This document shows, piece by piece, positions 13,016 to 40,901 of a DNA stretch of 64,000 nt (within the stretch, counting starts at the first letter, position 1; every line of letters begins with the position of its first letter). A program made the translations under genes and the position numbers. The stretch spans positions 812 through 64,811 of the forward strand of contig WRIY01000005.1 of NCBI GenBank assembly GCA_009782515.1, in the 5' to 3' direction. The notes under the pieces were generated by a model. That model was given only the letters and a program-made list of their open reading frames with translations, was not told where the DNA came from and did no database searches. This stretch comes from Eubacteriaceae bacterium. GTDB taxonomy: Bacteria > Bacillota > Clostridia > Eubacteriales > Anaerofustaceae.

Positions 13016-13047
13016 CAAGGATGAGAGCGAATTCTCATCCTTGTTTT
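13016..13047 (+). terminator. Rho-independent terminator after the ABC operon
   Basis: A perfect 11-bp stem (CAAGGATGAGA / TCTCATCCTTG) with a 6-nt loop, followed by TTTT. Confidence 0.7.
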
Positions 13048-13104
13048 GGCTGCTGCTTGTTTCGCCTGCACAGGCAGCATGCCAAATGCTCTAAGGAGAA
13101 AGCT

Positions 13105-13914
13105 ATGAACAAAGCGAATAGCCATAAAAAACTGCCTGCCCAGGCAATAGCAGCAATTTTTGTTTTTGCTGTTTTAATTGCATTGGCGTTTGCGTGGGCT
13201 GTTTTTGCAGATGTTATCATACTGCGCAAAACCGAAGGCTTAGGCGGGGCAGAGCGCGCTATTTCGATTTTATATGTTGGTGACAGCTTTATTTTTGTCG
13301 GCGGGCTCCCAAGGCAGCTGCAAGCGATTGCCAGGGCCAGCGGCATTGATACATCCTATAAAGATATTTCAAGGCACGCAAACCGCGGAGGCACCCTGAA
13401 AGAGAACATGGAAAATGCAATTAGGGAGTTGCAAAGCGGCAGATATAGCTACATTGTCATTCATGATCAGAATAGGAAGTCTCTTAGCGACATCGAAGGC
13501 CTGCTCGCAGATATACAAACACTGTGCAATGCTGCTGTTGAAAATGGGGCCATACCAGTGCTATATGATTTTGCAGGAATTGCAGCACACGGCAAGCCTG
13601 ATGAAGAGCGCCTAAGCATTTCTATTAATGCATACAGGCAAGCTGCAAATAGCAATAATGCCATTTTAGTCAGGGCTGCCGAGGCCTGGGTTTACGCATA
13701 TCAAGCGATGCCGGAAATTTCACTGTACACCAGGTTTGACCCTCGCGGCCTTCACCCAAGCAGGGCGGGAGGGTTTATGAGTGCATGCGTTTTTGCTGCT
13801 GAAGTGTTTGGCATACAAGTAACACAGATGCCAAAAGGCAGCATATATACAGGCAGTGACGCTCTCGGCCTTGCACAGGCTGCATGGGATTTCGCCAGCT
13901 TGCCTCGGGAGTGA
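13105..13914 (+). CDS. Membrane-anchored SGNH/GDSL-type hydrolase
   Basis: AAGGAG lies 6 nt before the ATG at 13105, and the track's 13021 start would lie inside the terminator hairpin. There is an N-terminal TM segment, block I ILYVGDSF, and a C-terminal DPRGLHPS (DxxH). Confidence 0.65.
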   Translation: MNKANSHKKLPAQAIAAIFVFAVLIALAFAWAVFADVIILRKTEGLGGAERAISILYVGDSFIFVGGLPRQLQAIARASGIDTSYKDISRHANRGGTLKENMENAIRELQSGRYSYIVIHDQNRKSLSDIEGLLADIQTLCNAAVENGAIPVLYDFAGIAAHGKPDEERLSISINAYRQAANSNNAILVRAAEAWVYAYQAMPEISLYTRFDPRGLHPSRAGGFMSACVFAAEVFGIQVTQMPKGSIYTGSDALGLAQAAWDFASLPRE

Positions 13915-13996: not shown

Positions 13997-14018
13997 AAAA
14001 AACCCCTGCTAAGCGGGG
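13997..14018 (-). terminator. Probable terminator of the zinc-ribbon/ACS-like bicistron
   Basis: On the minus strand, a CCCGC(U)... hairpin (plus-strand CCCTGC-TAA-GCGGGG, 6 bp including one G-U pair) is followed by T6. Confidence 0.5.
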
Positions 14019-14092: not shown

Positions 14093-16177
14093 CTATACGA
14101 GAATCGGCATTGTGGAAACCGGGTGCTTTGTGTCCTGAAGGTGCCTCTTTAGCTCCTCAAGCGTCACGCCAATGCTTTCATCGCATATCATTTCAGCGAA
14201 ATCCTCTATGCCGGTAAGCTCTTTGGCTCTTAAGTTTATTTCATCCCTGTATTCGTCTTTTAGCGATTTTGGCATCCAAACAACTCTTATAATGCCCCCT
14301 TCCGGCTGCAAATACTTTTTTGAGGCAATATAGCTTTTGCTGTGCCCCATTGCGCCAGGCGCCTGTTTCGCAGCGCTCGCCATAAACGCCAGCTCTGAAA
14401 AGCGCAGCCCCATGGGCGTAGCTCCGGAGTAGTCTTTGGGAACAGCAAGCACGCCGCTGGTAGACGGCTCAACTGCGCTAATGCACTCAAAGGCGCCAAT
14501 AGAAGGCATCGGATCCTGCATCAGCGAATAGATTGCCACATTCTTATAGCCTTTTTCAAGAGTGGCATCAACTTCAGCATACCTTCCCAGCAGGGCATCA
14601 GACGCCTCCCCTTTTGCTATGGCCATAATTGAAGGCGAGTTGCCTTTTGAGAGGGCGTGCTCTGAGTAAGCGCTATAGTAGTCAACAGCGCCGCATATGC
14701 CGGGCTTTTCGGGAGTAATAGCGCAAAAATGCGAACTCTGGTATTTGCGGCAAGCAGTGCAGGCATAAAAGAGCTTCACATTCTCGTCAGTAAGCTCACT
14801 AAGCCTTTCTGAACGTATTTTCGTTAATGGCGCTGCCACATTTGCCTCAATATTCTCAGACAGGCTCTGCTCAGTAATTATTGTTACCCGGCACTTAGAA
14901 ACGATATCTCCATATTCTTTTATCACCTGGCTGTATATCGACTGGCCAAGTGACTCATCTGTAAATCCTTTGTCATAAGCAGCCTTGCTAATGCGCAAGG
15001 TCGCTGAGCCAAAGTTCATGCTTAGGCTAACCCCTTCTATGCGATTAATCCATATGCTTAGCTGTTTTTCAGCGAATAGTTCAAACTCGTGCTCAATATT
15101 GGGGCCATGGCACTCTACCAGGATTGAAAGGCTTGAGCCATCTATAAGCCCATACCCCTTTGTTTCGACCTGGCTGTTGCCCGGCCAGTCGCTTCTGCTA
15201 AAAAAGAGCAAAAAGCCTGAATTTTCAGGCCATCCCAGCTGGGCATGCAGCTCGCCAGGCATAACTGCTTCATTCTGAAATGACGGGGAGTATGCATTTG
15301 CAGCAAAGCTTTCGCGCTCTACAGCCTCAATTCCACGAAGCCTGAATGAAATATCAGCCATCTTGCCTATGCCGTTTGAGCTCTCATAAGCTGTTGGCAC
15401 ATATGCTGAGCCGAGGCCTGCTTCAGCTATAGCCGGAAAGCCAAGCGCCATACAGCTCGCAGCGCAAGCAGCAGCAATCCCCGAAACCTCTCCGAGAATG
15501 TTTAAAAAAACAGGCAAAGAGCTTTTTGAAAAGCTGAAAAGGGAGCTTATGCTGCCGCCTGAAGATTCGCTGAAAATTTCAGCAAAGCGAAGGATTGCAG
15601 CAAATGCTTGTGAGCATGAGGCAAATGAAAAAACCCGATACTCTTTTCCGCCCTTTATTGAGCAGTTTTTTGCTTGGCCTGCAGCGCTGCCGGCCAAAAA
15701 AACAACAGCGCCGCTTTCCTGGTACTTCCGCACTAAGCCTTCAAACGCCTTATCGTCTTTAGTTTGGCCTATTATTAGCGCAATAGCAGGCACATCGCCT
15801 CTGGCAAGAGGGACTGCCAGATCCCTTATATCTGCGTCGGGCATATAGTTAAGGCTGAATGCCTCGGCATCATCCATATGCTCCAGTGCTTGAAGCGACT
15901 CAAGCCACAACAAAGCATACAAGCCCTCGTTGAAAGCAGATCCCAAGGCTCCTTCAGCTGGCATTATTTCCGGTTTTTCATACAAAGCTTTTTGTAGATC
16001 GCTTAGGTCTAAAACACTGATTCCTCTAAGGGCATGCATAAGCTGCAGAGTATATGGAAGGCGTGCTTCAAATCCATGCTTTTCGGCTGCATTGCCCAAA
16101 GCTTCCTGTGCTTGGCTGAGCAGCAAGGCTGACTCGCTTGCAGCCAAATCCTCTAATACACTCACGGCCCGCCTCAA
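14093..16177 (-). CDS. Acetyl-CoA synthase (AcsB/CdhC-family) paralogue lacking the Cys-Gly-Cys Ni ligands
   Basis: It aligns along its full length with the canonical AcsB at 33982-36120. It keeps CTACRKYQSSHFCAITPEKPGIC and GHSKSYIASKKYLQPEGGIIRVVWMPK, but the CGC position reads IGA (14492-14500). The start is non-ATG: the TTG at 16177, or the GTG at 16165 with GAGG upstream. Confidence 0.85.
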   Translation of the reverse strand: MRRAVSVLEDLAASESALLLSQAQEALGNAAEKHGFEARLPYTLQLMHALRGISVLDLSDLQKALYEKPEIMPAEGALGSAFNEGLYALLWLESLQALEHMDDAEAFSLNYMPDADIRDLAVPLARGDVPAIALIIGQTKDDKAFEGLVRKYQESGAVVFLAGSAAGQAKNCSIKGGKEYRVFSFASCSQAFAAILRFAEIFSESSGGSISSLFSFSKSSLPVFLNILGEVSGIAAACAASCMALGFPAIAEAGLGSAYVPTAYESSNGIGKMADISFRLRGIEAVERESFAANAYSPSFQNEAVMPGELHAQLGWPENSGFLLFFSRSDWPGNSQVETKGYGLIDGSSLSILVECHGPNIEHEFELFAEKQLSIWINRIEGVSLSMNFGSATLRISKAAYDKGFTDESLGQSIYSQVIKEYGDIVSKCRVTIITEQSLSENIEANVAAPLTKIRSERLSELTDENVKLFYACTACRKYQSSHFCAITPEKPGICGAVDYYSAYSEHALSKGNSPSIMAIAKGEASDALLGRYAEVDATLEKGYKNVAIYSLMQDPMPSIGAFECISAVEPSTSGVLAVPKDYSGATPMGLRFSELAFMASAAKQAPGAMGHSKSYIASKKYLQPEGGIIRVVWMPKSLKDEYRDEINLRAKELTGIEDFAEMICDESIGVTLEELKRHLQDTKHPVSTMPILV

Positions 16178-16740
16178 TCAAAGCTTTCGCCGCACTCAGG
16201 GCATTCTGTTGATCCAAGAGGGGCAAGTTTGTGGCAGTATGGGCACACATTTATCTGCACCGGCTCGCTCTCATACTCATCTTCGTCCTCAGCCCGGATG
16301 TCGCTTATGTTTGTATTGCAGTAAGTGCAAAACATAAGCTCAGAGTTTACCGGCTTTGAGCAAATGGGGCAAATTGCCTCTCTTGATGAAGTCCCGGAGT
16401 AAACATCAGCAACTTTTGTTCCGCAATCGCTGCAGTATTTCATATCAGTTGAGAGCTTGGCTCCGCACTCCCTGCATACGCCATGCACTTTTAGCGCAGA
16501 CATCTTGTCTTTTATAATTTCTATCTCAGTAGCAGCCTGCTTAGCCTTTAGAACATATGCAGCAAGCTCTGCATCAGCAACATCACCCTCAAGCGATTTG
16601 AGGTATTTTTCACCCAAATCTCTATACGCTCTTCTTAGCGCGTATTCTGCATTCTTCAGATCAGCGGTAGCTATCGAAAAATCTATTGTATTTTTGCCTT
16701 GCTGCGCTATCCTTCTTGCTAAGCCATCTAAAAAGGCCAT
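16174..16740 (-). CDS. Coiled-coil protein with three CxxC-x10-CxxC zinc ribbons
   Basis: GGAGG lies 5 nt before the ATG at 16740. The N-terminal ~90 aa form a charged helical region. The three ribbons are CRECGAKLSTDMKYCSDCG, CPICSKPVNSELMFCTYCN and CPYCHKLAPLGSTECPECG. The stop codon overlaps the start of the ACS-like gene. Confidence 0.75.
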   Translation of the reverse strand: MAFLDGLARRIAQQGKNTIDFSIATADLKNAEYALRRAYRDLGEKYLKSLEGDVADAELAAYVLKAKQAATEIEIIKDKMSALKVHGVCRECGAKLSTDMKYCSDCGTKVADVYSGTSSREAICPICSKPVNSELMFCTYCNTNISDIRAEDEDEYESEPVQINVCPYCHKLAPLGSTECPECGESFD

Positions 16741-16922
16741 TTCCACCTCCAGCATTGGCAGTCCGGTATTGCAAAGCCAATCTCTTTATATTATATCATT
16801 GCAGTTTCGCCAAGAAAACATTAGGCACGAGGCAAAAGCTGCGCTGCAATAGTGTTATAAGTAGCCAATTAAGCGTGCTTTATTATGAAAAATTGCTATA
16901 ATTATGATCAAAGAGGATTTAT

Positions 16923-30564: not shown

Positions 30565-33500
30565 CTAATATATGGAGCATTCTTGGCAAGGAATGAATGC
30601 TTGAACTGTGCCATTTGCAGTGCAAAGCTCCACATCTATGCCTATGCGGCAGTGCTGTGTTCTGTTTATTTGAATGTCCAATTCAATTTTAAATTTATTC
30701 CCGGCAGGATGAATGATTATTGGTTGGCATTTATTATCGAACAAAATATTCACTTCATTGCTTCCGGATGCCACCCATATGTAAATAGTAGCTGGGAATG
30801 CGGCGATGTTTGCAGGGACTGGTGTGCATTCACCGGGCAGTAGACACAGCTGGAACGCAGCTTGCGGGCATTCACTGCATTTTAGGGCATTTTGAGAGCT
30901 AACGCGCTGGTTTCGCTTGCGCCTCCGATAACTGGCTCGGCTGCGTTTTTCGATAGCCGCATACGCTGCGCCGCTAGAATTATCGCCATTGTCTCGAGCT
31001 TGTTCATTCCGGGCACCCTGTTCATCAGCCATATAAGAATTGGCTTCTTCTTCTGTATAGCCTTCAAAATCCAAGTCAACGTCTCTAAACCCATCGAATA
31101 ATGAGCCCTCTTCATCGGTGATGAGAGTTATATCTTCTTCCTCATCCACAATAAGGCTATCAGGGTTATGCATTTCCAGCCTGCCATTATTGCCTAAGCG
31201 ATTCACCTGAATGCCGCCGTAGTAACCGGCTTCCAGGTTATGATCGCTGGTTTGCGTAAGGTTGTTTACCTTTGTTTTCAATGTAATGCTGTTTTCTTTG
31301 CGCTCCCCTGAAGGAACATATGGCTCACCCATAGGGCCCAGCAGTATTTGGGTGACCTGCTGGTTTAAGAGGATATGAAGCTGTGCGATATATCCGGGAA
31401 TATCTTGATCAAAGTAATCTTGAATCACATAATAATCTGTATTGGGGGAGTAGCTCTCAGCAAGCGTATAGTTGGTGCCATCCAGTGTTGTGTATACATG
31501 GGTATCCTCAGTGAAATAGTAATATGGATTGTTCTTGTTCGGCTCAAAAATGGCAAAGGAGCTGTTTCCATCCTCTGACCCCTGTGCCGACCAGTCATTT
31601 GAGTAAAAGCAAACGCCCTTGCCGTCGAGCGATTTGTTGTTTTCCTTGTACTGCTCGCTAAGCTGGCTCCACTCGAAGCCCTCTGCCATACCTACCGTAT
31701 AATTCGTCCTGATGGGAAAGACCTCTTTGATTTCAAGAATCTCTATTCTGTCCGGATGCTCTTCGTCATGCGTTTCGCTGATAGTGCGCATCGGTATAAG
31801 GCTGGCAGGAATGAACCAAACGACCATCTGCTGGCCTTTGGCCAGTGATATTGTTGGCTTGCTGTAACCTCTCAGATTGAAATCGCCTTCTTCGAGCGTG
31901 GTTATGATCTCAAGATAAAGATGCAGCAAGTTGCTGTCCTCTCCGGTCTGTTCGTTATATACGACATTGTGCATTGGCAGCAGCCTTACAATGCTTGCAG
32001 CATTGCTTGGCACGGCCAGCAGCTCGCCATACCTGTCATAAAAATTGCCTAAAAAATTCGAGTCATAATCGGCATACCATTTCATACTGCATCCATAATC
32101 ATCATCTGCATTATAGTATATCTCGCCTGAGGCGATGCTTCCGGCAATCAGCTCTGTTGCAGCGCTTTTGCCAAAACCCATACGCGATGCCAATGAACTT
32201 GCCCAATAGTCAAGCAGCAAACCTCCAGGCGGCTCATCAACGATGCTTTTAGCCAACACGTTCCCGTAAAACATTTCTCCGCCGATCCATGTGCCTTTAA
32301 ACTCTTTAAATTGCATATATTGCCCCAGCGGATCTACAACTGTCACATAGCCGGAGAAATCAGGGTGTGAAGGATCGCTCTCGGTGGTGTATGCGCCTGA
32401 CGTAACGATGTTTTGGGCTATGGATTTAAAAGCGTCATCCAACGCTTTTGCATTATCAGCAGCAAAGTATGAGGTGGCATAATTATAGCTTTTAATATAG
32501 TTATCCTTATTTTCGATAGTCACAAGGCTGCGCGCTGATGTGCTTCCCTTTAGAAGAGCCGGAAATTCGATAATGCCAAACTCGGGGTTGACAAATTTAT
32601 CTAAAAGTTCCTGCATATTATATAGCTCACTGCCGAAAGATTGGGTGTTGTGTACAGCATTATTAAAAGGATCCATCACAGAAGGGGCATGCACTCCCGA
32701 TACATCCAAGCCTACAGTGTAAATTTGCATTTCATTGCGTTTTTCGGTGCCATAATAATGATCATGTATTCGCTGCTTCCAGTAGGACGCGGTGAGCACG
32801 GTCAGTATATCTGTTCCTATATCAATGCTAAAAGTGGGATCGCCATTGCCGTGGTTATAGCCACCATCCTTATCGCTGCCCGGGTCTTGCATTTCATAGT
32901 CGTCCCAGCCGAAGGTAGGCTCACCGTCTGTGAGCAGCAGCATTATGGGCCTGCGCGTTATCGAAATTAACCGGCCCTTTTCAGTTGTATAGGAATACGC
33001 CGTGTCATGGTTTTCAACAAAAATCCTGGCTCCGGCATATATGCCACGCTGTGTGGGCGTTGCGCCGTTCACTGCAACAGTTTTGCTGACTACCATCTCG
33101 GCAGGAATAGACGGGCTAACAGTGATGCTTGAGCCGATGATGCTAAAAAAATCGCCCGCAATATTATAGTGGCCCAGCTTGAGTATCTGCTCGGCCCGGG
33201 ACATATTTGTCAAGCCGCTTGCGTAGCCGCCATAAGCGACAACCGCTATGCGATTGTTTTGGTCGGCATCCAAAATGGTGTGTATCGCTTTGTTTAATGC
33301 TTTTACCATCACCTGCGCGCGTGTTTCGGCGCCCATTTTATAAATGTACATGCTTGAGGAAACATCCAGGACAAACACCGTGTCAGTGGGTACATCCACA
33401 ACGTCTACAGTGTAACTCTGAGACAGCGCTGAAAGAGTTATTAAAAACTCATCCATGTTGGCGTGGACAGTATGTATTGGATCTCCTTGATGATCATAAA

Positions 33501-33609
33501 AGATTATATCGCCTGTATTAACTGTTTTATCTACCCAAATATGTCCGTTATCTATGCTTGATGGTTCGAAATAATCGGAAAAGCGGGAAGTATGGTGATC
33601 GCTAAGCAT
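30565..33609 (-). CDS. Large von Willebrand factor A (VWA) domain protein with no signal peptide or cell-wall sorting signal
   Basis: MIDAS residues are present: VFVLDVSSSM, RIAVVAYGG and LLLTDGEPT. GAGGAG lies 9 nt before the ATG at 33609, and an in-frame TAG lies 19 codons upstream. The N-terminus (MLSDHHTSRFSDYFEP) is hydrophilic. Confidence 0.75.
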   Translation of the reverse strand: MLSDHHTSRFSDYFEPSSIDNGHIWVDKTVNTGDIIFYDHQGDPIHTVHANMDEFLITLSALSQSYTVDVVDVPTDTVFVLDVSSSMYIYKMGAETRAQVMVKALNKAIHTILDADQNNRIAVVAYGGYASGLTNMSRAEQILKLGHYNIAGDFFSIIGSSITVSPSIPAEMVVSKTVAVNGATPTQRGIYAGARIFVENHDTAYSYTTEKGRLISITRRPIMLLLTDGEPTFGWDDYEMQDPGSDKDGGYNHGNGDPTFSIDIGTDILTVLTASYWKQRIHDHYYGTEKRNEMQIYTVGLDVSGVHAPSVMDPFNNAVHNTQSFGSELYNMQELLDKFVNPEFGIIEFPALLKGSTSARSLVTIENKDNYIKSYNYATSYFAADNAKALDDAFKSIAQNIVTSGAYTTESDPSHPDFSGYVTVVDPLGQYMQFKEFKGTWIGGEMFYGNVLAKSIVDEPPGGLLLDYWASSLASRMGFGKSAATELIAGSIASGEIYYNADDDYGCSMKWYADYDSNFLGNFYDRYGELLAVPSNAASIVRLLPMHNVVYNEQTGEDSNLLHLYLEIITTLEEGDFNLRGYSKPTISLAKGQQMVVWFIPASLIPMRTISETHDEEHPDRIEILEIKEVFPIRTNYTVGMAEGFEWSQLSEQYKENNKSLDGKGVCFYSNDWSAQGSEDGNSSFAIFEPNKNNPYYYFTEDTHVYTTLDGTNYTLAESYSPNTDYYVIQDYFDQDIPGYIAQLHILLNQQVTQILLGPMGEPYVPSGERKENSITLKTKVNNLTQTSDHNLEAGYYGGIQVNRLGNNGRLEMHNPDSLIVDEEEDITLITDEEGSLFDGFRDVDLDFEGYTEEEANSYMADEQGARNEQARDNGDNSSGAAYAAIEKRSRASYRRRKRNQRVSSQNALKCSECPQAAFQLCLLPGECTPVPANIAAFPATIYIWVASGSNEVNILFDNKCQPIIIHPAGNKFKIELDIQINRTQHCRIGIDVELCTANGTVQAFIPCQECSIY

Positions 33610-33921
33610 AGTTTTTGTCTCCTCATGTTCGCAGAATTCTATAGTATAGTATTCGACATGGCACTAATATGTGTAATGGGATTGTGGGATTCGACAATAA
33701 AAATCTGGTAATTAAAGGATTTTTTTAAGATAAACACAAATTTAAGGCAAAAGGCACATGAAAAAGCAAAAAGCATGCTTTCGCAAAAAACGGCGCATGG
33801 AATTTGGCATTGTAAATGCATGTCTTTATAAGGAATACATTTTCGCTTTTAGTTGGGCGCCCATATGCAAAAACTCAATCAATCGCCAACAAAAGTGGGA
33901 TTTCAGGCAAAACAGTTAGCC

Positions 33922-33950
33922 AAAAAAAGAGCCTGCTTTGCAGCAAGCCC
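33922..33950 (-). terminator. Rho-independent terminator after acsB
   Basis: On the minus strand, GGGCTTGC-TGCAAA-GCAGGCTC (8 bp, two G-U pairs) is followed by T7. Confidence 0.65.
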
Positions 33951-33981
33951 TAAATTTTTACTGTCAACACTAATTCATTAA

Positions 33982-36120
33982 TTACATCAAAGGATCCATG
34001 CTTAGCGCCGGATGGTTCTTTTCAGTAAGGAATTCAACCAATGTTTCTTCGTCTGGAGCGGTCTCTTCGTCAGCAATCATGTCAACAAAGTTATCGATGC
34101 CATAAAGCTCTTTTGCAGTATGGTTCAGCCTGTCAGCAACTGTCTCTTTAAGCTGCTTTGGCATCCAAACGATTCTCTCGATTCCGCCTTCAGCGCGCAT
34201 GAACTTCTTGGAAGCAATAAAATGCTTGCCGTGGCCCATGAAGCCAGGGGTTTGGATTCCACCGCCGGTCATCGAAGCAAGCTCTCCGAAGCTCATTCCG
34301 ATTGGCGTTGTGCCAACATATTCGCGGTTAACAATGATAACACCGTTTGATGCCGGCTCAATGCCGCAAATGCACTCGAAGCATCCGCATGATGTCATTG
34401 GATCTTCAAGTATGGAGTAAAGGGTTACTTGGCTTAGAGCGCCGCGTGAGTACTGGGCAACAGCAGCGTTAACATCATCCCAAGATCCCATAACTTCATC
34501 AATAAGGCCACCTTTTGTTACGATTTGGCACGGGCCTGAAGGATCAAGCTCTTTTGTAGCTTTAGCATCCAGCCAGGATACAGCGCCGCACAGGCCCAGA
34601 CGCTCCGGGGTAACTATGCATACGTGAGATGGCGAGAATGACTGGCATAGAGTGCATGTGTAGAATACATCAACTGACTCGTCAGTTAGAGATTCAAGCC
34701 TCTCATCACGCTTGTCCCAAATAGGGATGGCGACGTTAAATCTGAAGTCTTTGCATTCTTCAGCGTCTGTATAGACTGTTACTTGGCATTTGTCAACAAC
34801 AGCTTCGAACTCGTCTTTCATCTTTGCATATAAGACTTCGCCAAAATGCTTTGCACGGAAGCCTGCATTAAATGCAGTTTTTGATACACGGATATTGGAG
34901 TTGTCTCTTTGGCCTGTATGCATGATGCCTTCCATGTTGTTGATGAAATGGTGGATCTTGCGCTCGAGCACTGACTCGAAGTCGCTTTGCATAGCATTGC
35001 CTGCTACTTCAACCAGAAGGCCAAGGTTAAAGCGGCCGCCTTCTTCAAACTCTTCGAAATCTTTGCCAATAAGCGTGATCTTATGATCTTCGATATCATT
35101 GGCATCTATTGTTCTAACAAGCTCGAAGCAGTCGAGGCGGGAGCCGTTTGCCTCCAGCTGCATATCGTTTCTGCGAATGATTTCGCCTTCGAAGGCAGCT
35201 GCATATGAAACAGGTATATCCATCTCTGTGATCTTGATCTTTATGTTGCGCATTTCTATAGAAGCGTCAACATAGTTCTCATATTCGTTGTATAAGAGAA
35301 GGGATTTTGGCACTGACCAGATATTTTCTGTTTCATCAGTCATTACAGGGAATCCGAGGGCGATAGCGCCGCCGCCGCATGCCACTGTCATATCATCGAG
35401 TGGAGCAAATGCATTTACAAATGCCTTAACGCGATCGAAGGTGTATTTTAGTATTCCGTCATAATCGCCAGGGGTGCAAGCGCCAAATATAAGGGCTGCG
35501 CGGATAGCAACGCTGACAACATGGATAACTGATGGGAGTTCCGGCCCAAGGGGAACTATGCGGATTTTGAAGCCAAGGTTAACATCGGCTGCAATAGCCT
35601 GATCTATAATTCCGCCAACCAGGAACACCATTATTCCCTTTGCCTGATAGCCTTTAATCAAATCTGCAGCTATTTCAGGTGAAGGGGCTTCGTGGATAAG
35701 CACAGCCACGCCCGGGATATCGTCAGTAACAAGAGGCACGCCAAGCTCACGGATCTCAGCATCTGACAGATGCCCATGATAGCGATCATCATATGGCTTT
35801 TCGTTTCCATTAAGCATGTACTTAACGGTCTCGATGACTTCGGCTGAAAGCGCAGTTCCAACACCGGATGTGAATACATTGTGAAGCTGCGGATCATGGT
35901 TCATGAACTCTTGAATATCTGCTAGAGCTTCCTCTTTTAAAGACGCAAGCGTCGGGTATTTCTTGCCAGTGAAAGCATATAGGCATGGAAGCCCATAAGC
36001 AGTGTTTGGCAAGGAGACTGCTGCTTCTGGCCCAAGCTGGTTAATGGCGTCATCAACAGCTTTTGCAGCAAGGTTGAACATATCATCAGAGCCATTAAAG
36101 ACTCTATCGAAAAGTGTCAT
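33982..36120 (-). CDS. acsB: Acetyl-CoA synthase (CO-methylating), A-cluster subunit
   Basis: CTLCQSFSPSHVCIVTPERLGLC, then 66 residues, then SCGCFEC. This spacing is identical to Cys506/509/518/528 and Cys595-Gly596-Cys597 of Moorella ACS. AAGGAG lies 5 nt before the ATG. The gene follows cooS and cooC. Confidence 0.92.
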   Translation of the reverse strand: MTLFDRVFNGSDDMFNLAAKAVDDAINQLGPEAAVSLPNTAYGLPCLYAFTGKKYPTLASLKEEALADIQEFMNHDPQLHNVFTSGVGTALSAEVIETVKYMLNGNEKPYDDRYHGHLSDAEIRELGVPLVTDDIPGVAVLIHEAPSPEIAADLIKGYQAKGIMVFLVGGIIDQAIAADVNLGFKIRIVPLGPELPSVIHVVSVAIRAALIFGACTPGDYDGILKYTFDRVKAFVNAFAPLDDMTVACGGGAIALGFPVMTDETENIWSVPKSLLLYNEYENYVDASIEMRNIKIKITEMDIPVSYAAAFEGEIIRRNDMQLEANGSRLDCFELVRTIDANDIEDHKITLIGKDFEEFEEGGRFNLGLLVEVAGNAMQSDFESVLERKIHHFINNMEGIMHTGQRDNSNIRVSKTAFNAGFRAKHFGEVLYAKMKDEFEAVVDKCQVTVYTDAEECKDFRFNVAIPIWDKRDERLESLTDESVDVFYTCTLCQSFSPSHVCIVTPERLGLCGAVSWLDAKATKELDPSGPCQIVTKGGLIDEVMGSWDDVNAAVAQYSRGALSQVTLYSILEDPMTSCGCFECICGIEPASNGVIIVNREYVGTTPIGMSFGELASMTGGGIQTPGFMGHGKHFIASKKFMRAEGGIERIVWMPKQLKETVADRLNHTAKELYGIDNFVDMIADEETAPDEETLVEFLTEKNHPALSMDPLM

Positions 36121-36137
36121 AACTTCTCCTTATAAAT

Positions 36138-36920
36138 TTATACCTTTAATAAATCGTGGTCAATCTTGTTCTTTATAAGATCAACTTCCTGTATGGCTTG
36201 GCTGCTAAAGTCAAATGGAGATTTTCCCTGCCTGTCCGCTTCAATGAGATCTGTATTGTAATGTATCATGCCCAACAGATCCTCTGAAGGAACGTTTGCC
36301 TCAACAAAAGCCTCATCTTCAGCGTCCCGCACCTTATTGGCAACTACTTTTATCTTGTCAACGCCCAGATCAACAGCAAGCTTCTTAACCTTTTCATAAG
36401 TCTGGATGCTGCGAGATCCCGGCTCAATGACTACTACAAAAGAGTCAACGCTTGATGCAGTGCCTCTTCCAAGATGCTCAATGCCGGCTTCCATATCCAT
36501 TATCACAACGTCGTCAGAATATAGGACAAGATGCGATATGATCCTTTTGATTAATACATTCTCAGGGCATACGCATCCAGCTCCGCCAGATTCAACTGTG
36601 CCAAGTGTTAAAAGCTTGACGCCGTTGTATTTTTTAGCGTACATATCAGGAATGTCATCAACTTTAGGGTTAATCTTAAAGAATTTGCCCATGTTCTCCT
36701 CAGAAGCGCCGGTTCGTTCGTTGACAAGCTTCTTCAGATGCGCGATTGGCACGATTTGATCAAGAATTCTCTTATCAAAACCAAGAGCAAGGCCCAGATT
36801 GGCATCTGGATCCGCATCGACTGCCAAAACATTCTTGCCTTCATTCGCATACAGCCTTGCTAGAATGGCGGAGAAAGTAGTCTTTCCTACTCCGCCTTTT
36901 CCTGTTACAGCAATTTTCAT
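36138..36920 (-). CDS. cooC: CODH nickel-insertion accessory ATPase (CooC/AcsF)
   Basis: The P-loop is MKIAVTGKGGVGKTT, and the metal-binding motif is GGAGCVCPEN (CxC). The family is MinD/ParA-like. Confidence 0.9.
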   Translation of the reverse strand: MKIAVTGKGGVGKTTFSAILARLYANEGKNVLAVDADPDANLGLALGFDKRILDQIVPIAHLKKLVNERTGASEENMGKFFKINPKVDDIPDMYAKKYNGVKLLTLGTVESGGAGCVCPENVLIKRIISHLVLYSDDVVIMDMEAGIEHLGRGTASSVDSFVVVIEPGSRSIQTYEKVKKLAVDLGVDKIKVVANKVRDAEDEAFVEANVPSEDLLGMIHYNTDLIEADRQGKSPFDFSSQAIQEVDLIKNKIDHDLLKV

Positions 36921-36943
36921 ACAGAAATTTCCTTTAAACTTTC

Positions 36944-38878
36944 TTAGATGCCGAGTGCAAGCCTCTTCTCTTCGATTCTCTGAATCATAGCATCGCCTAG
37001 CTTGTCTACATCAGTTTCGAATGTGAAGGCTGCGCCTGTCCAATCTCTTGCCTGGTTGGTCAGGATATCTTTAACAACATCAGAACCGTCAACGTAAGGC
37101 ACGATTCCCAGGAATGTGTCGATTCCGGTTGAGATAACATAGTTGCCGATTGAAACAGCTTTTTCGCTCATCCATTCTGGCGCACATCCAACAACTGGAA
37201 GCTGAGGAACGTCAATGCCCCACTGATCAGCTACTTGGTTGACGAGAATCATCATGCGGCTTATGTCAACGCATGATCCCATGTGCAGCACTGGAGGAAT
37301 GTTGGCGAGTTCGCATACGCGCTTAATGCCTGCACCAGCGATGTCTTTAGCTTCAAAGTTCATCAGGCCGCCTTTGGCAGCTGATTGTGCTGAGCAGCCG
37401 GAAAGAACCAAAATGATATCGTTCTTAAGCAGCTTCTTCATGAGCTCAATATGTGCAAAGTCAGCCCTTACTTTCGGGTTGTTGCAGCCAACCATGGCCA
37501 CAGCGCCTCTTAGCACGCCTGATTCTATGCACTCGATGAGTGGCTTCCATGTGCCGAGTTCATCAATATAAGAAGAAGTAACCGTATCAAGCTGCTTAAT
37601 GATGGCTTCGCATGAGTATCCAACTCTAGCTTTAGCTTTCATTTGTGGAATATACACAGCCTCTTGGTCACGGTTTTTGAAGTTTTCAATAGCTGCTGTC
37701 AGGATGTTGCGCGCATTTTCGCCAGCTGTCTGTGCATTAAAGCGAATGAATTCAGCATCTGGCATCTGGGCAACAACAGAAGTAGTTATGAATTTTGTGT
37801 GGAAGCACTTGCTAAGCGGCCCAAGAGCTGGGAAGATGCACTGTACGTCAACTACGACAGCTTCCATTGCCCCTGTCAGCACAGCGTTCTCCTGCTGCAG
37901 GAAGTTGCCTGCCATTGGTATTCCGTGGCGCATGGTTACTTCGTTGGATGTGCAGCAAATGCCTACAATGTTAACGCCTTTGGCGCCAACAGACTTTGCC
38001 AGAGCAATAAGGTCTGCGTCATTGGCATGCTCAACGATCATCTCTGAAAGAGAAGGATCATGCCCATGAACCATAATGTTTACATATTCTTTGTCAATAA
38101 CTCCGAGGTTAGCCTCTGTATCGATTGGCTTTGGAGTTCCAAACATGATATCTGAAAACTCTGTTCCCATCATAGAACCGCCCCAGCCATCTGACAAACC
38201 GGCGCGAAGAGCTTGCTTAATTAGAACATCGGGAAGTGATGAGCACCCTATATGGGTCATATGCTGTGAGGTTGATACTTCACGATCAATAGCCCTTGGC
38301 TCTATGCCCAGCTTCGCCCATGTTTCCTGGCGCTCTTTTGTTGCCCTTGAGAGGAAGCGAAGTGTGCCAAACGGCTTGCCATATTCTTGAAGCCCTTCAA
38401 ATGCGACTTCGTGCGCGAGTTCATATATGTCTCTGCCTTCTGTCTCTATGCCCCACTCTTGTGCCAGCCTGATAAGTTTGTCGGGATCTTTAATCTTGTA
38501 GTTTCCATCTTCTGCTGTCTCGTGCAGAGTATGGCAGATTTCGCGGCCATGATCTGAGTGTGTTGCTGAGCCGGCTGCTGTAAAGCGCAGATAGTTGCGT
38601 GCAACTATGCCATGAACATCACAGCCGCAGATGCCTTTAGGCGCCTTGGCGGTTATGCGGCAAGGACCCATTGCGCAGATTTTGCAGCATACGCCTGTTT
38701 CTCCAAATTTGCAATGCGGAGATTGGTTTTGAGACCTCGTTATCCACGAGTCTGCATTCTTTTCCTGGCCAATCGCGAGCAGTTTAGCATATTCCGCTTC
38801 CATTACGTCGATGGCAATCAGGTTTTCTGTCGCTTTGGAGATCCTTTCTTCCAAAACAGACAATATCTTAGTTTCCAT
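36944..38878 (-). CDS. cooS: Anaerobic Ni-Fe-S carbon monoxide dehydrogenase catalytic subunit
   Basis: The N-terminal Cys cluster is CKFGETGVCCKICAMGPCRI, with later GICGC, HGHD, CCTSNE and GSCVD motifs. AAGGAGG lies 5 nt before the ATG at 38878, so I reject the track's 15-aa extension to 38923. Confidence 0.92.
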   Translation of the reverse strand: METKILSVLEERISKATENLIAIDVMEAEYAKLLAIGQEKNADSWITRSQNQSPHCKFGETGVCCKICAMGPCRITAKAPKGICGCDVHGIVARNYLRFTAAGSATHSDHGREICHTLHETAEDGNYKIKDPDKLIRLAQEWGIETEGRDIYELAHEVAFEGLQEYGKPFGTLRFLSRATKERQETWAKLGIEPRAIDREVSTSQHMTHIGCSSLPDVLIKQALRAGLSDGWGGSMMGTEFSDIMFGTPKPIDTEANLGVIDKEYVNIMVHGHDPSLSEMIVEHANDADLIALAKSVGAKGVNIVGICCTSNEVTMRHGIPMAGNFLQQENAVLTGAMEAVVVDVQCIFPALGPLSKCFHTKFITTSVVAQMPDAEFIRFNAQTAGENARNILTAAIENFKNRDQEAVYIPQMKAKARVGYSCEAIIKQLDTVTSSYIDELGTWKPLIECIESGVLRGAVAMVGCNNPKVRADFAHIELMKKLLKNDIILVLSGCSAQSAAKGGLMNFEAKDIAGAGIKRVCELANIPPVLHMGSCVDISRMMILVNQVADQWGIDVPQLPVVGCAPEWMSEKAVSIGNYVISTGIDTFLGIVPYVDGSDVVKDILTNQARDWTGAAFTFETDVDKLGDAMIQRIEEKRLALGI

Positions 38879-39449
38879 TGAAACCTCCTTGACATGCTTA
38901 TGTTGCTTGCTGGCGCGCTTCATTTTTGAAAATAAGTAGGAGTTATACTATATTTTATTGTCTGAATCGCACCAAAAGAAATATGTTCCGGATGGATTAT
39001 AGCAAAAAAGCAGCAATAAAACAATGATTAGTTACTGCCAGGCATTCAAATTTTCGAGAGAGATTTTTGGCTGTTTCTAGAATTTTATTGTATTAATGAC
39101 GCTGTCTACAATATTTTAGCGCGATATTTCGATAAATAACCATCTGTTGCCCTGAGTGCAGGATTCATGCGCGATCATGATATAGCAATCATTATAAGTT
39201 TTCGCAAAATTTGAAAAAAACGCAAATAAGAAATTCAGTATTGCATGTCTTTTTTCAATCGCTTATAGGGCTGCAAGCTGCCATCATTGCCTCTAAGCAG
39301 CACAGTTTGCTGCTTGGCTGTGGGATCGCTGCAATGCAAAATTATTGGAAGGAATGGGGTTTTATGAGCAATCCGGCATAAAGCCAGGGCAAAAGTGCAA
39401 ATGCTGTAAAAAAGCGTGTGCCGAAAATGAAAGAACACGGCATTTCGAC

Positions 39450-39473
39450 AAAAAAATGCCCTTGAAAGCATTT
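39450..39473 (-). terminator. Possible terminator closing the LuxR/zinc-ribbon cluster
   Basis: On the minus strand, an AAATGC-(8 nt)-GCATTT hairpin is followed by T7, directly after the stop at 39481. Confidence 0.45.
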
Positions 39474-39480
39474 TTCATTG

Positions 39481-40161
39481 CTAATAGCTATTTCTGCTGC
39501 CCGCCATGTACATTCTGACCAATTGCTCTACATGCTCGTAGTTGCCATTGTTTGCGTAAATCAATGCAGTTTGGCCTGAAGGCTTGTGCAATGCTATTTC
39601 GAGCTTTTCAGGGCGATACTCAGCGCTAATGTAGTCACCCCATGGATTTATTGGCATACCATGCATAAGCGTGCCGGCATTCTTTGCCATTTTTATGCCA
39701 TGCGAAACAACGCTGGGGTTAGCCTTGCCAGACGTTGCTGCAACTGATGCCATTCCCAGCATAGCGAGCCTTTTCGCTACATCAGGCGGATAGCTGCAGG
39801 CATAGCCCTCCCGGGCTATGACCCACAAAGTGCGCTCAACACCCCATTTCTTTTGCTTGCCCTTATAGGCCCATGTGATTATATAGACTGCAAGCGCCAC
39901 AATGCCGCCCATAATAACTGGCACGAACCAAAAGCCTTCAGCAAGTGCAACCAGCAAGCCGATTCCAGTCATCGGCAGCCATGCCAGCAGTATTATTGCG
40001 ATAATTGCTTTCCGGCTATAGAGGCTGCTTGCCGTTTCATAGCTGTATTCGCCTGGAGCCGGCATAGCCGCCGATCTGGCAAGGCCGCACTCAGGGCAAA
40101 AGTTTGCCCCCTCGCGCATGTAGGCCCCGCAATGCTCACAGTGCGCGGCAGATTCCATCAT
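39481..40161 (-). CDS. Zinc-ribbon / two-TM protein with an uncharacterised C-terminal domain
   Basis: CEHCGAYMREGANFCPECG lies at the N-terminus. Two hydrophobic helices follow (AIIAIILLAWLPMTGIGLLVAL, VPVIMGGIVALAVYIITWAY), then about 125 aa that I do not recognise. Confidence 0.7.
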   Translation of the reverse strand: MMESAAHCEHCGAYMREGANFCPECGLARSAAMPAPGEYSYETASSLYSRKAIIAIILLAWLPMTGIGLLVALAEGFWFVPVIMGGIVALAVYIITWAYKGKQKKWGVERTLWVIAREGYACSYPPDVAKRLAMLGMASVAATSGKANPSVVSHGIKMAKNAGTLMHGMPINPWGDYISAEYRPEKLEIALHKPSGQTALIYANNGNYEHVEQLVRMYMAGSRNSY

Positions 40162-40837
40162 ATGCTTCCCAAGCCTCTCTTTTTATTTCGCTTTTGTTTA
40201 TTTCAGCCTGCTTTGCGCAGCAATCTTTAAAGCCTGCGATAACGCTCTCGCTGCCTGCCTCTGTACAAGCATCAGGCTCGGCTGTTGCATGCTGCCACTT
40301 TCTTGTGCGCGACATTTGCAGTGCAGCAATGATTTTTTGGCCTGTTTGATCTGAGAGCACATTGCCTGCCCCGACCATTTTTCCGTTTGCGTTTTTTTCC
40401 AGGAACACTTTGAAAATATACTCCGGCTGCCCGTCAAAGGCAATATGCACTGTATCGCTGCTTTCGACTGTGATATGGCCCAAGCTTTTCACATTCTCCG
40501 GCCTGAAGCCCTGCAGCTTGGACAGGCTCTCAGGAAATGCCCCCTCTTTGACCCGATATACGCTAAAATCATAGCCCCCCTTGGCAGATGCGGATACATT
40601 AAATCTCAAATGCGATTTGTAAACATTCGTTCGGTCGCCTGACTCCCAGATTTCCAGGTACACGTCCCACTGGCCGTCCAGCGAGTCAACATCCAAGTCG
40701 ACGGTTTCTTCCCGGATTATCGGTGGGTTTTTATCGTAACAGCCGCAAAAAGCTATGGCGATGGCAACAAGCAAAGCCGCTGCTGCAATGCAAAAGCTGG
40801 CTTCACCGTCTTTTGGCAGGACAGGTTTATTGCGCAT
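40136..40837 (-). CDS. Hypothetical lipoprotein
   Basis: The signal peptide has Cys residues in a lipobox-like context (LLVAIAIAFCGC), followed by a beta-rich soluble domain. It overlaps the downstream gene by 26 nt. Confidence 0.6.
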   Translation of the reverse strand: MRNKPVLPKDGEASFCIAAAALLVAIAIAFCGCYDKNPPIIREETVDLDVDSLDGQWDVYLEIWESGDRTNVYKSHLRFNVSASAKGGYDFSVYRVKEGAFPESLSKLQGFRPENVKSLGHITVESSDTVHIAFDGQPEYIFKVFLEKNANGKMVGAGNVLSDQTGQKIIAALQMSRTRKWQHATAEPDACTEAGSESVIAGFKDCCAKQAEINKSEIKREAWEAYDGICRAL

Positions 40838-40901
40838 ATTGAGCTCTCTTCGTATCGTAGTATCGTTTAGTGGTCAATGCCGGATCATTGCAGCTATGGC
40901 A

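What the first reader, a model, noticed from the sequence alone, without database searches (positions are those of the whole stretch)
14093..16177. Intact acetyl-CoA synthase paralogue with the Ni-binding Cys-Gly-Cys replaced by Ile-Gly-Ala
The window encodes two AcsB/CdhC-family proteins.

The canonical copy (33982-36120) sits next to cooS and cooC. It reads CTLCQSFSPSHVCIVTPERLGLC, then 66 residues, then C-G-C (codons at 34381-34389). This spacing is exactly that of Cys506/509/518/528 and Cys595-Gly596-Cys597, the residues that build the A-cluster in Moorella thermoacetica ACS.

The second copy (694 codons, no frameshift or stop) is homologous over its whole length. Its last 132 residues align with the canonical copy without a gap (GHSKSYIASKKYLQPEGGIIRVVWMPK versus GHGKHFIASKKFMRAEGGIERIVWMPK). 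It keeps all four cubane cysteines (CTACRKYQSSHFCAITPEKPGIC). At the CGC position it reads MPS-I-G-A-FEC (ATT GGC GCC on the minus strand, 14492-14500). The Phe three residues after the bridging Cys (CQSF) is Tyr (CRKY).

Both Ni ions of the A-cluster are held by those two Cys thiolates and the adjacent backbone amides. This protein therefore should not assemble a Ni-Ni site, yet it looks maintained rather than decayed. It could be a pseudo-enzyme or scaffold, or an ACS fold reused with a [4Fe-4S]-only or different metal site. I do not know of a characterised family of this kind.
Basis: partly seen in the sequence, partly recalled or inferred. Interest (0 to 1): 0.8.

Follow-up and report, generated by a model that had tools for sequence, protein, structure and literature searches.

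The report
Nickel-site-less acetyl-CoA synthase paralogue
This bacterium carries, besides its normal acetyl-CoA synthase, an intact and evolutionarily maintained copy that keeps the iron-sulfur cluster cysteines but has lost the nickel-binding site, is always paired with a small zinc-ribbon protein, and so almost certainly does something other than make acetyl-CoA.

Summary
ORF 14093-16165(-) is a full-length, three-domain AcsB homologue, 31% identical to the canonical acsB at 33982-36120. It keeps all four [4Fe-4S] cysteines but reads Ile-Gly-Ala where Moorella ACS has Cys595-Gly596-Cys597.

It is neither an assembly error nor a recent pseudogene. The same DNA occurs in a separately deposited assembly, and composition is native. 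Two syntenic orthologues (P0009, P0008) are also intact and also lack the site (IGC, SGL). All three sit directly downstream of a conserved triple zinc-ribbon gene. Neighbouring genes show these lineages diverged long ago (RecD2 46% identical), so the protein has been under purifying selection. Second-shell and catalytic residues have also eroded: F512, V149, and C. autoethanogenum R383 and H386.

The predicted structure matches closed-state ACS (TM 0.9).

Best reading: an ACS-derived, Ni-free, [4Fe-4S]-only non-catalytic protein that works with the zinc-ribbon partner. Its actual role is unknown.

The clade is rare, with three lineages among about 15 billion proteins. The wider phenomenon is not rare. 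Of 104 ACS cluster representatives that keep the cubane cysteines, 22 lack both Ni cysteines and 18 lack one. The papers I searched do not describe this.

It is a new variant of a known kind, of moderate to high interest.

The parts
14093..16165 (-). ACS-like (AcsB-derived) coding sequence, 690 aa from GTG 16165. The mechanical ORF extends to TTG 16177.
   Evidence: Pfam PF19436 and PF03598 are found. The NCBIfam AcsB equivalog scores 456 bits against a cut-off of 800. The AF2 model has pLDDT 83.8 and matches closed ACS at TM about 0.9.
14492..14500 (-). Codons ATT GGC GCC (Ile556-Gly557-Ala558 in 690-aa numbering) at the position of the Ni-binding Cys595-Gly596-Cys597 of Moorella ACS.
14693..14761 (-). 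Segment CTACRKYQSSHFCAITPEKPGIC, which holds the four retained [4Fe-4S] cysteines (C469, C472, C481, C491) and Tyr475 in place of the gate residue Phe512.
   Evidence: These four Cys are kept in all seven members of the divergent clade.
16174..16755 (-). Upstream partner gene of 193 aa: an N-terminal helical region followed by three CxxC...CxxC zinc ribbons (12 invariant Cys; Pfam DZR). Its stop codon overlaps the TTG of the mechanical ACS-like ORF.
   Evidence: The same gene sits immediately upstream of the orthologues in L005 and L010.
16172..16175 (-). GAGG ribosome-binding site six bases upstream of the GTG start of the ACS-like gene. It lies inside or next to the partner's stop codon, which suggests co-transcription and coupled translation.
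   Evidence: Read directly from the sequence.
16790..16798 (-). Extended -10-like element TGATATAAT about 35 bases upstream of the partner's ATG; a candidate operon promoter.
   Evidence: Read by eye. The consensus scanner did not list it, so it is weak evidence.
13997..14018 (-). Short G+C hairpin (CCCCG...CAGGGG) followed by TTTTTT, about 75 bases after the stop codon; a candidate terminator.
   Evidence: Read by eye. The stem is too short or imperfect for the scanner, so it is weak evidence.
33982..38923 (-). Canonical cooS (36944-38923), cooC (36138-36920) and acsB (33982-36120) cluster of the same genome, used as the comparison. This acsB carries CGC at 34381-34389.
   Evidence: The NCBIfam AcsB equivalog scores 1002.7 bits against a cut-off of 800.

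Best explanation
The gene encodes an AcsB-derived protein that keeps the whole three-domain ACS fold and the [4Fe-4S] cubane but has lost the Ni-Ni part of the A-cluster. It is therefore not an acetyl-CoA synthase. It belongs to a small, old, syntenic clade found so far in three Eubacteriaceae-like lineages. In that clade an AcsB duplicate became fixed next to a triple zinc-ribbon gene and has since evolved under purifying but relaxed selection.

Shown here: homology and fold; retention of the four cubane Cys; loss of both Ni-bridging Cys; loss of the gate Phe, an alcove Val and the proposed acetyl-transfer Arg and His; orthologues with conserved gene order; native composition.

Inferred: it binds only a [4Fe-4S] cluster; it is made from a two-gene operon with the zinc-ribbon protein and acts together with it; its role is non-catalytic or at least not C-C bond forming. 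The most likely role is a redox-active Fe-S module, sensor or scaffold, comparable to how Nar1/IOP1 relates to [FeFe]-hydrogenase.
For: Only the Ni ligands and their surroundings are eroded. Of 117 columns nearly invariant in 19 canonical AcsB, the paralogue keeps 72. The positions lost in all three orthologues cluster around the Ni site: V149, Moorella R405 (= C. autoethanogenum R383), F512, P514, T593, C595, G637 and G638. H386 is Ser. The roles of these residues are taken from PMC11321310 and bioRxiv 10.1101/2024.08.05.606187.

The fold is preserved. The AF2 model has pLDDT 83.8, and Foldseek gives TM 0.89-0.91 and rmsd 3.3-3.6 A to closed-state ACS.

There is selection. Orthologues P0009 and P0008 are intact (702 and 705 aa). 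Both have the zinc-ribbon gene directly upstream. L005 also carries RecD2, S30AE and DUF5317 as in the window, and L010 carries the periplasmic binding protein. The neighbouring genes are only 40-64% identical, so the split is ancient, yet the ACS-like proteins still share 32-41% identity and 150 identical columns. Shared rare substitutions (R to K367, T to P554) support a single origin. A related Ni-less group has dN/dS 0.145.

GC content and codon usage are native. Identical DNA occurs in a separately deposited assembly.
Against: There is no direct evidence on metal content, expression or interaction with the zinc-ribbon protein.

The replacement residues differ among orthologues and only four clade-specific conserved residues exist. 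So no positive signature of a new function was found, which is what a slowly decaying duplicate would also show.

P0009 keeps the second Cys (IGC), so the site was lost stepwise and some members might still bind a metal.

The clade is very rare: three lineages in about 15 billion proteins.

The intergenic distance between partner and ACS-like gene is 172-406 bases in the orthologues, so tight translational coupling is not conserved.

The neighbour-joining tree that groups the divergent sequences could suffer from long-branch attraction.
Confidence: 0.6

Rival explanations
1. The gene is a duplicate under relaxed selection and on its way to loss. It is still open by luck or because of weak residual constraint, and it has no function of its own.
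For: It evolves much faster than canonical AcsB: 31% identity to the canonical copy, against 51-70% per domain between the canonical copy and C. autoethanogenum ACS. It has lost 45 of 117 canonical near-invariant residues. The active-site replacements are not conserved among orthologues. There are almost no clade-specific conserved residues. The clade is sparse.
Against: Three orthologues of about 700 codons are all open, although their lineages are so old that RecD2 is 46% and the binding protein 40% identical. Neutral drift over that span would erase both similarity and reading frame. All four cubane Cys are kept in all seven clade members. Adjacency to the zinc-ribbon gene is conserved. Codon usage is native. 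The related P0048 group has dN/dS 0.145, similar to its neighbours.
Confidence: 0.12
2. It is still a metalloenzyme with a rebuilt active site. One version has a single metal held by the bridging Cys472 plus other ligands. Another has ligands supplied in trans by the cysteine-rich zinc-ribbon partner. Either way it would catalyse a different reaction on a CoA thioester or a C1 unit.
For: The bridging Cys (C509 equivalent) and alcove residue F229 are retained. P0009 keeps one of the two Ni cysteines. Other Ni-less ACS homologues sit beside C1/THF genes: FolD and MTHFR in L012, MTHFR in L013. This suggests that some ACS-fold proteins without CGC have metabolic roles. The partner carries 12 invariant Cys.
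Against: No conserved Cys, His, Asp or Glu replaces the lost ligands in the three orthologues. The only invariant Cys are the four cubane ones plus one that is also present in canonical ACS. The proposed acetyl-transfer residues R383 and H386 and the CoA-adenine Trp are not kept. The partner's 12 Cys fit three ordinary CxxC...CxxC ribbons with none to spare. No C1, CoA or CODH genes are near this clade.
Confidence: 0.15
3. It is a non-catalytic alternative partner of the genome's CODH (CooS) or of the corrinoid protein. By occupying the AcsB docking site and capping or plugging the CO tunnel, it would switch CODH between bifunctional and monofunctional operation.
For: The N-terminal CODH-docking domain is retained in full length and folds like that of ACS. 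The tunnel positions A110 and A222 are bulky Leu and Ile in this protein. The equivalent A225L is an engineered variant in solved structures (8cmw, 8cja). The C-terminal domain, which meets the corrinoid protein, is the best conserved part. The genome has a cooS-cooC-acsB cluster.
Against: The N-terminal domain is the least conserved part next to A2 (26% identity), and the CODH_A_N Pfam match falls below threshold at 23 bits against 32. The tunnel substitutions are not shared by the orthologues, which have A and V. The gene is 18 kb from cooS and never adjacent to a CODH gene in the three loci.
Confidence: 0.1
4. It is an assembly or sequencing artefact at the two Cys codons.
For: None was found. 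It was considered only because the source is a metagenome-assembled genome.
Against: 8 kb of identical DNA occurs in a separately deposited ENA assembly, and three contigs carry the exact protein. TGY to ATT and TGY to GCC each need two or more base changes. Dozens of other canonical invariants around the site are changed too. Orthologues show the same loss.
Confidence: 0.01

Closest known systems
Bacterial acetyl-CoA synthase AcsB (EC 2.3.1.169; Moorella thermoacetica 1OAO/1MJG, Clostridium autoethanogenum 6YTT, Carboxydothermus hydrogenoformans 7ZKJ)
   Same: It has the same three-domain architecture and length. Identity is 27-31%, and the structure model matches at TM about 0.9. It keeps the same four cubane cysteines with the same spacing, the alcove Phe229, and the highly conserved C-terminal segment (GHxKxxIASKK...EGGIxRxVWMPK).
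   Different: Both Ni-bridging cysteines are replaced (Ile, Ala). The gate Phe512 is Tyr, alcove Val149 is Ala, the Arg proposed to stabilise the acetyl group is Lys, and the proposed base His is Ser. The Gly-Gly-Gly loop (Moorella 636-638) is Ser-Ala-Ala. The protein fails the NCBIfam equivalog cut-off. It is not next to CODH, CooC or corrinoid-protein genes and is paired instead with a zinc-ribbon gene.
Extra acsB copies reported in acetogens (Acetobacterium bakii and relatives, Blautia, isolate TWA4; PMC6239172, bioRxiv 10.1101/2020.01.23.904417, PMC4275979)
   Same: They too are a second AcsB-family gene in an acetogen-type genome.
   Different: The reported copies lie inside or next to the Wood-Ljungdahl cluster and are described as ordinary ACS (for example 63% identical). 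None of those papers mentions loss of Ni ligands. Tandem copies I could inspect (L001) both carry CGC. I could not inspect the Acetobacterium copies themselves.
Nar1/IOP1 (NARFL), the eukaryotic [FeFe]-hydrogenase-like protein (recalled from my own knowledge, not tested here)
   Same: This is the same evolutionary pattern: a complex metalloenzyme fold that keeps its [4Fe-4S] cysteines but has lost the catalytic sub-cluster, and serves a non-catalytic Fe-S-related role.
   Different: It is an unrelated fold and lineage. The comparison is by analogy only and is not evidence for function.
Other Ni-ligand-less ACS/CdhC homologues found here (P0020/P0048 in Eubacteriaceae; P0023/P0161 in Omnitrophota; P0041 and others)
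   Same: They keep the four cubane Cys and lack one or both cysteines of the CxC motif. Sources annotate them as ACS or as hypothetical proteins.
   Different: They have different gene neighbourhoods: recF-gyrBA for P0020/P0048, FolD-MTHFR for the Omnitrophota group, MTHFR for P0041. None has the zinc-ribbon partner. Identity to this protein is 25-30%, so these are probably separate losses or separate subfamilies.

Membership tests
Acetyl-CoA synthase AcsB/CdhC (functional enzyme, EC 2.3.1.169) | Homologous ACS fold (Pfam CdhC PF03598 plus ACS_CODH_B_C PF19436; three domains A1-A3 in bacterial AcsB) | tested here: met
   The AF2 model matches closed ACS structures at TM 0.89-0.91.
Acetyl-CoA synthase AcsB/CdhC (functional enzyme, EC 2.3.1.169) | Four cysteines that bind the [4Fe-4S] part of the A-cluster (Moorella C506, C509, C518, C528) | tested here: met
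   C469, C472, C481 and C491.
Acetyl-CoA synthase AcsB/CdhC (functional enzyme, EC 2.3.1.169) | Cys-Gly-Cys motif that holds the proximal and distal Ni (Moorella C595-G596-C597) | tested here: not met
   Ile556-Gly557-Ala558, in gap-free alignments to 6YTT and 3I04/1OAO and in an HMM alignment.
Acetyl-CoA synthase AcsB/CdhC (functional enzyme, EC 2.3.1.169) | Alcove and gate residues G145, I146, V149, F229, F512 (PMC11321310) | tested here: not met
   The residues are A117, V118, A121, F198 and Y475. Only F229 is kept unchanged, together with a conservative residue at I146.
Acetyl-CoA synthase AcsB/CdhC (functional enzyme, EC 2.3.1.169) | Residues proposed for acetyl transfer to CoA (C. autoethanogenum R383, H386, G399; bioRxiv 10.1101/2024.08.05.606187) | tested here: not met
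   K367, S370 and M383.
Acetyl-CoA synthase AcsB/CdhC (functional enzyme, EC 2.3.1.169) | Score above the curated NCBIfam equivalog cut-off (NF040764, 800 bits) | tested here: not met
   456.3 bits, while the canonical copy in the window scores 1002.7.
Acetyl-CoA synthase AcsB/CdhC (functional enzyme, EC 2.3.1.169) | Gene neighbourhood with CODH, CooC/AcsF and corrinoid Fe-S protein genes | tested here: not met
   The neighbours are a zinc-ribbon gene, RecD2, a sugar ABC transporter and a hypothetical gene. The orthologues also have no such neighbours. The canonical cluster lies 18 kb away.
Acetyl-CoA synthase AcsB/CdhC (functional enzyme, EC 2.3.1.169) | Ni content, NiFeC EPR signal, acetyl-CoA synthesis or exchange activity | not testable with these tools
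   This needs anaerobic purification and assays.
Zinc-ribbon-linked Ni-less AcsB-like clade (provisional; this protein, P0008, P0009) | A triple zinc-ribbon (DZR) gene immediately upstream on the same strand | tested here: met
   Window 16174-16755, L005 7005-7595 and L010 2885-3448. The three proteins are 35-41% identical with 12 invariant Cys.
Zinc-ribbon-linked Ni-less AcsB-like clade (provisional; this protein, P0008, P0009) | Shared derived residues next to the former Ni site (Pro-Ser before the motif, first Cys lost, Arg to Lys at Moorella 405) | tested here: met
   The motifs are PSIGA, PSSGL and PSIGC. K367 and P554 are shared and occur in at most 1 of 19 canonical sequences.
Pseudogene | Frameshifts, internal stops or truncation; neutral evolution | tested here: not met
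   The 690-codon frame is open here and in two anciently diverged orthologues. dN/dS could not be measured in this clade because no close pairs exist. It is 0.145 in the related P0048 group.

The most novel reading that the evidence does not exclude
ACS-fold proteins that keep the [4Fe-4S] cubane but lack the Ni-Ni site may form a widespread, repeatedly evolved and so far undescribed functional class. It spans both the AcsB and CdhC architectures, and some members are embedded in C1/tetrahydrofolate gene clusters. On this reading, the zinc-ribbon-paired clade in this window would be a two-component Fe-S/zinc module with a regulatory or sensing role in acetogen-type bacteria, for example for redox state or CO. 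A practical consequence is that acsB, a standard marker gene for acetogenesis, would over-call the pathway in metagenomes.
Probability: 0.3. Interest if true: 0.75.

Novelty: new variant of a known kind. Interest (0 to 1): 0.62.

Why it matters
ACS is one of the best-studied organometallic enzymes and is considered among the most ancient. Its Ni-Ni-[4Fe-4S] A-cluster is treated as the defining feature of the family. A maintained full-length paralogue that keeps only the cubane shows that the fold has a second use, and it offers a natural 'Ni-free ACS' for studying what the scaffold does on its own.

The survey here suggests such proteins are common among divergent family members: 22 of 104 cluster representatives lack both Ni cysteines and 18 lack one. 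Databases nevertheless label them as acetyl-CoA synthase, for example the NCBI name of P0158. acsB is used as a marker for acetogenesis and the Wood-Ljungdahl pathway, so these homologues can inflate metabolic predictions from genomes and metagenomes. The conserved pairing with a triple zinc-ribbon protein gives a concrete, testable handle on function.

Tried and rejected
1. Word-indexed homologue search with the protein and with an alignment of the three orthologues. These returned only the protein itself plus canonical ACS. The alignment search did not even recover P0008 or P0009, so it gave no information. The search with P0009 found only canonical CGC proteins at 45% identity or less.

2. 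Genome scan with the protein. It returned three loci, all canonical CGC.

3. Metagenome scan with the zinc-ribbon alignment. No confirmed hits.

4. Metagenome scan with the ACS-like alignment. It returned 80 loci, all canonical CGC and none with the zinc-ribbon gene.

5. First structure prediction with 8 sequences. At pLDDT 62 it was too poor to use and was replaced by a 128-sequence alignment.

6. dN/dS within the clade. This was impossible: the members are 32-41% identical, so synonymous sites are saturated, and the only close pair differs by 1 residue. A related group was used instead.

7. Riboswitch or other RNA elements near the operon in the window, L005 and L010. None were found.

8. 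Anti-phage defence models for the partner, the ACS-like protein and the downstream hypothetical protein. None matched.

9. PDB sequence search for the partner. It gave only chance-level zinc-ribbon matches.

10. Consensus promoter and terminator scan. It was no better than shuffled sequence, so the promoter-like and terminator-like elements I list were read by eye and are weak.

11. Horizontal transfer. Rejected on composition and codon usage.

12. Literature searches for a described Ni-less ACS family. Nothing was found. The library lacks most subscription journals, including Adam et al. 2018.
Full report
**1. The observation**

The minus-strand ORF 14093-16177 is open for 694 codons. A GAGG six bases upstream of GTG 16165 makes a 690-aa product most likely. 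That is the protein NCBI annotates as 'MAG: hypothetical protein FWG30_02745 [Eubacteriaceae bacterium]' (P0001). Residue numbers below refer to this 690-aa form.

BLASTP against the canonical AcsB of the window (33982-36120) gives 31% identity over 705 columns, E 3e-118. There is no gap in the last ~150 residues. Pfam finds ACS_CODH_B_C (3.5e-73) and CdhC (1.3e-14). The NCBIfam AcsB equivalog scores 456 bits against a cut-off of 800, while the canonical copy scores 1003.

phmmer against PDB aligns the protein end to end with C. autoethanogenum ACS (6YTT, 1.7e-113) and Moorella ACS (1OAO/3I04, 4.6e-88). It places 'DPMPSIGAFEC' opposite 'DPMTSCGCFEC' without gaps. In my alignments the residues correspond as follows:
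- Moorella C506/C509/C518/C528 correspond to C469/C472/C481/C491.
- C595-G596-C597 correspond to I556-G557-A558.
- F512 corresponds to Y475.

The codons ATT GGC GCC lie at 14500-14492.

**2. Not an artefact, not foreign**

The exact protein is carried by three contigs. An ENA assembly (ERZ27257320) is identical to the window over all 8,073 bases compared. The two Cys replacements each need at least two base changes. They are accompanied by many other changes at canonical invariant positions. GC content is 48.6% against 46.5% for the window. Codon usage correlates with the other genes of the window (r = 0.85). The gene is therefore native.

**3. Anatomy of the locus**

Immediately upstream on the same strand lies a 193-aa gene (16174-16755). 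Its product has a helical N-terminal half and three CxxC...CxxC zinc ribbons (Pfam DZR, 8e-14). Its TGA overlaps the mechanical TTG start of the ACS-like ORF, and the GAGG for the GTG start sits at the stop codon.

An extended -10-like TGATATAAT lies about 35 bases before the partner's ATG. A short GC hairpin with a T-run follows the ACS-like stop. Both were read by eye and were not picked up by the consensus scanner, so the two-gene operon is an inference.

The flanking genes are a divergent RecD2 helicase, a ribosome hibernation factor, a DUF5317 protein, a sugar ABC transporter and a hypothetical gene. No CODH, CooC, corrinoid-protein or folate genes are adjacent. The canonical cooS-cooC-acsB cluster is 18 kb away. 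No riboswitch was found.

**4. Relatives**

An exhaustive HMMER scan of 1.84 billion cluster representatives found only the protein itself. The next hits were at 35% (P0008) and 33% (P0009) identity, followed by canonical ACS. Word-indexed searches and two metagenome scans added no closer relatives.

P0009 comes from a Eubacteriaceae MAG. P0009 and P0008 are positional orthologues:
- Both have the triple zinc-ribbon gene directly upstream.
- L005 also carries RecD2, the hibernation factor and DUF5317, as in the window.
- L010 carries the periplasmic binding protein downstream.

Identities between the window and these loci are as follows:

| Protein | Identity |
|---|---|
| RecD2 | 46% |
| Hibernation factor | 64% |
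| Binding protein | 40% |
| Zinc-ribbon protein | 35-37% |
| ACS-like protein | 32-35% |
| P0008 vs P0009 (ACS-like) | 41% |

The lineages are therefore anciently diverged. The ACS-like gene evolves only somewhat faster than its non-essential neighbours. Over that span a neutral sequence would have lost both frame and similarity. Instead all three are open at about 700 codons and share 150 identical columns. This is the main evidence for purifying selection.

A classical dN/dS is not possible in this clade. In the related Ni-less P0048 group it is 0.145, close to its neighbours at 0.08-0.10.

**5. What has been kept and what lost**

The four cubane Cys are kept in all three orthologues and in the four other divergent sequences that cluster with them (P0014, P0078, P0020, P0048). 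The Ni motif reads IGA, SGL and IGC in the three orthologues (FAG in P0020, IPF in P0048; HMM alignment).

Of 117 columns nearly invariant in 19 diverse canonical AcsB, this protein keeps 72, P0008 keeps 89 and P0009 keeps 84. Those lost in all three surround the Ni site: V149, Moorella R405 (C. autoethanogenum R383, here Lys in all three), F512, P514, D535, P544, T593 (Pro in all three), C595, M626 and G637-G638. The proposed base His386 is Ser, His and Pro in the three. F229 is kept. The functional assignments of these residues come from PMC11321310 and bioRxiv 10.1101/2024.08.05.606187.

Only four residues are conserved in the clade yet rare in canonical ACS: T258, S295, K367 and P554. They support a single origin, but they do not outline a new active site. 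No new conserved Cys appears.

By domain, identity to the canonical copy is 26% (A1), 21% (A2) and 42-47% (A3).

With 128 aligned sequences, AlphaFold2 gives pLDDT 83.8 and pTM 0.72. Foldseek matches closed-state full-length ACS at TM 0.89-0.91 and rmsd 3.3-3.6 A (8CJC, 7ZKJ, 1OAO, 7NYP). The whole fold is preserved.

**6. Explanation**

Both Ni ions of the A-cluster depend on the two lost thiolates, which is established from the Moorella and Carboxydothermus structures. The surrounding catalytic residues are also gone. The protein therefore cannot be an acetyl-CoA synthase.

Retention of the cubane cysteines, of the fold and of the partner gene across old lineages points to a [4Fe-4S]-only protein with a non-catalytic, or at least non-ACS, role exercised together with the zinc-ribbon protein. 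I put about 0.85 on 'maintained, Ni-free, not an ACS' and about 0.6 on the fuller statement.

The rivals are:
- a slowly decaying duplicate (0.12);
- a rebuilt metal site, or ligands supplied in trans (0.15);
- a decoy or alternative partner for CODH or the corrinoid protein (0.10). Bulky Leu and Ile at tunnel positions A110 and A222 are suggestive here, but the orthologues do not share them;
- an artefact (0.01).

**7. Wider picture and novelty**

I examined the best 150 cluster representatives. Of these, 104 cover all seven metal-ligand columns and keep the four cubane Cys. Among those 104, 64 have C-x-C (48 CGC, 12 CSC), 18 have one Cys and 22 have none (MAFFT gave the same picture).

This sample is ranked by similarity to a divergent query and counts clusters, not abundance, so the fractions are not frequencies in nature. 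They do show that Ni-ligand-less ACS/CdhC homologues are numerous and diverse.

Some of them sit in C1 contexts. An Omnitrophota group (SGY) follows FTCD_C-FolD-MTHFR, and P0041 (CGD) precedes an MTHFR gene.

Papers I could search mention extra acsB copies in acetogens (PMC4275979, PMC6239172, bioRxiv 10.1101/2020.01.23.904417). A 2026 ACS phylogeny is also available. None of these mentions loss of the Ni ligands. The library is incomplete, so prior description elsewhere cannot be excluded.

I class the finding as a new variant of a known kind.

**8. Verdict**

The feature is real, maintained by selection and apparently undescribed, but its function is unknown and its own clade is rare. Interest is 0.62.

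Noticed in passing
L012 8001-10154 (NCBI GCA_028710685.1, Candidatus Omnitrophota MAG): An ACS homologue with motif Ser-Gly-Tyr instead of Cys-Gly-Cys (cluster P0023/P0161, 8 members). It lies directly after FTCD_C, FolD, MTHFR and a Pyr_redox_2 gene, with no CODH or corrinoid-protein gene within 8 kb. This suggests a Ni-less ACS-fold protein tied to folate C1 metabolism.
   Followed up: partly
L013 8001-10154 (NCBI GCA_036704645.1): An ACS homologue with motif Cys-Gly-Asp, and possibly Ser at the third cubane Cys (P0041). It is followed by an MTHFR gene with a DUF5981 domain. This is a second case of a variant ACS next to methylene-THF reductase.
   Followed up: no
L006/L007 (P0020) and L008/L009/L011 (P0048, P0166), Eubacteriaceae MAGs: This is a second group of Ni-less AcsB-like proteins in Eubacteriaceae (motifs FAG and IPF). 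They lie near recF-gyrB-gyrA and have no zinc-ribbon partner. P0048 also lies next to a copper ATPase and a CsoR-type repressor. dN/dS between P0048 and P0166 is 0.145.
   Followed up: partly
Cluster representatives P0067, P0074, P0122, P0140 and others: Twelve cluster representatives carry Cys-Ser-Cys instead of Cys-Gly-Cys, and others carry CRC, CAC or CHC. So the middle Gly of the Ni motif is not universal among ACS homologues that keep both cysteines.
   Followed up: no
L001 3790-5946 and 5977-8130 (uncultured Clostridia MAG CALXGT010000053.1): Two tandem full-length acsB genes, both with the canonical SCGCFEC motif. Tandem duplication of functional-looking acsB therefore occurs and could be the raw material for Ni-less paralogues.
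   Followed up: no
window 30565-44015: The canonical cooS-cooC-acsB cluster is not flanked by acsC, acsD or acsE. Downstream is a 1014-aa protein with a weak VWA domain. Upstream are several proteins of unknown function, two of which have N-terminal zinc ribbons (39481-40161 and 40902-44015). The corrinoid-protein genes must lie elsewhere in the genome.
   Followed up: partly
window 13021-13914 (+): A 297-aa ORF convergent with the ACS-like gene has no Pfam, NCBIfam or PADLOC match. It is not conserved next to the orthologues.
   Followed up: partly
L005 4310-7023 and L010 32-2823: In both orthologous loci a TrkA-TrkH potassium-uptake pair sits directly upstream of the zinc-ribbon gene on the same strand. 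In the window this pair is absent and RecD2 is the divergent neighbour.
   Followed up: no
tool behaviour: The word-indexed homologue search with alignment A1 returned only P0001. It did not recover P0008 or P0009, although both were rows of the query alignment and both are in the collection. Negative results from that tool are therefore weak for this family.
   Followed up: no
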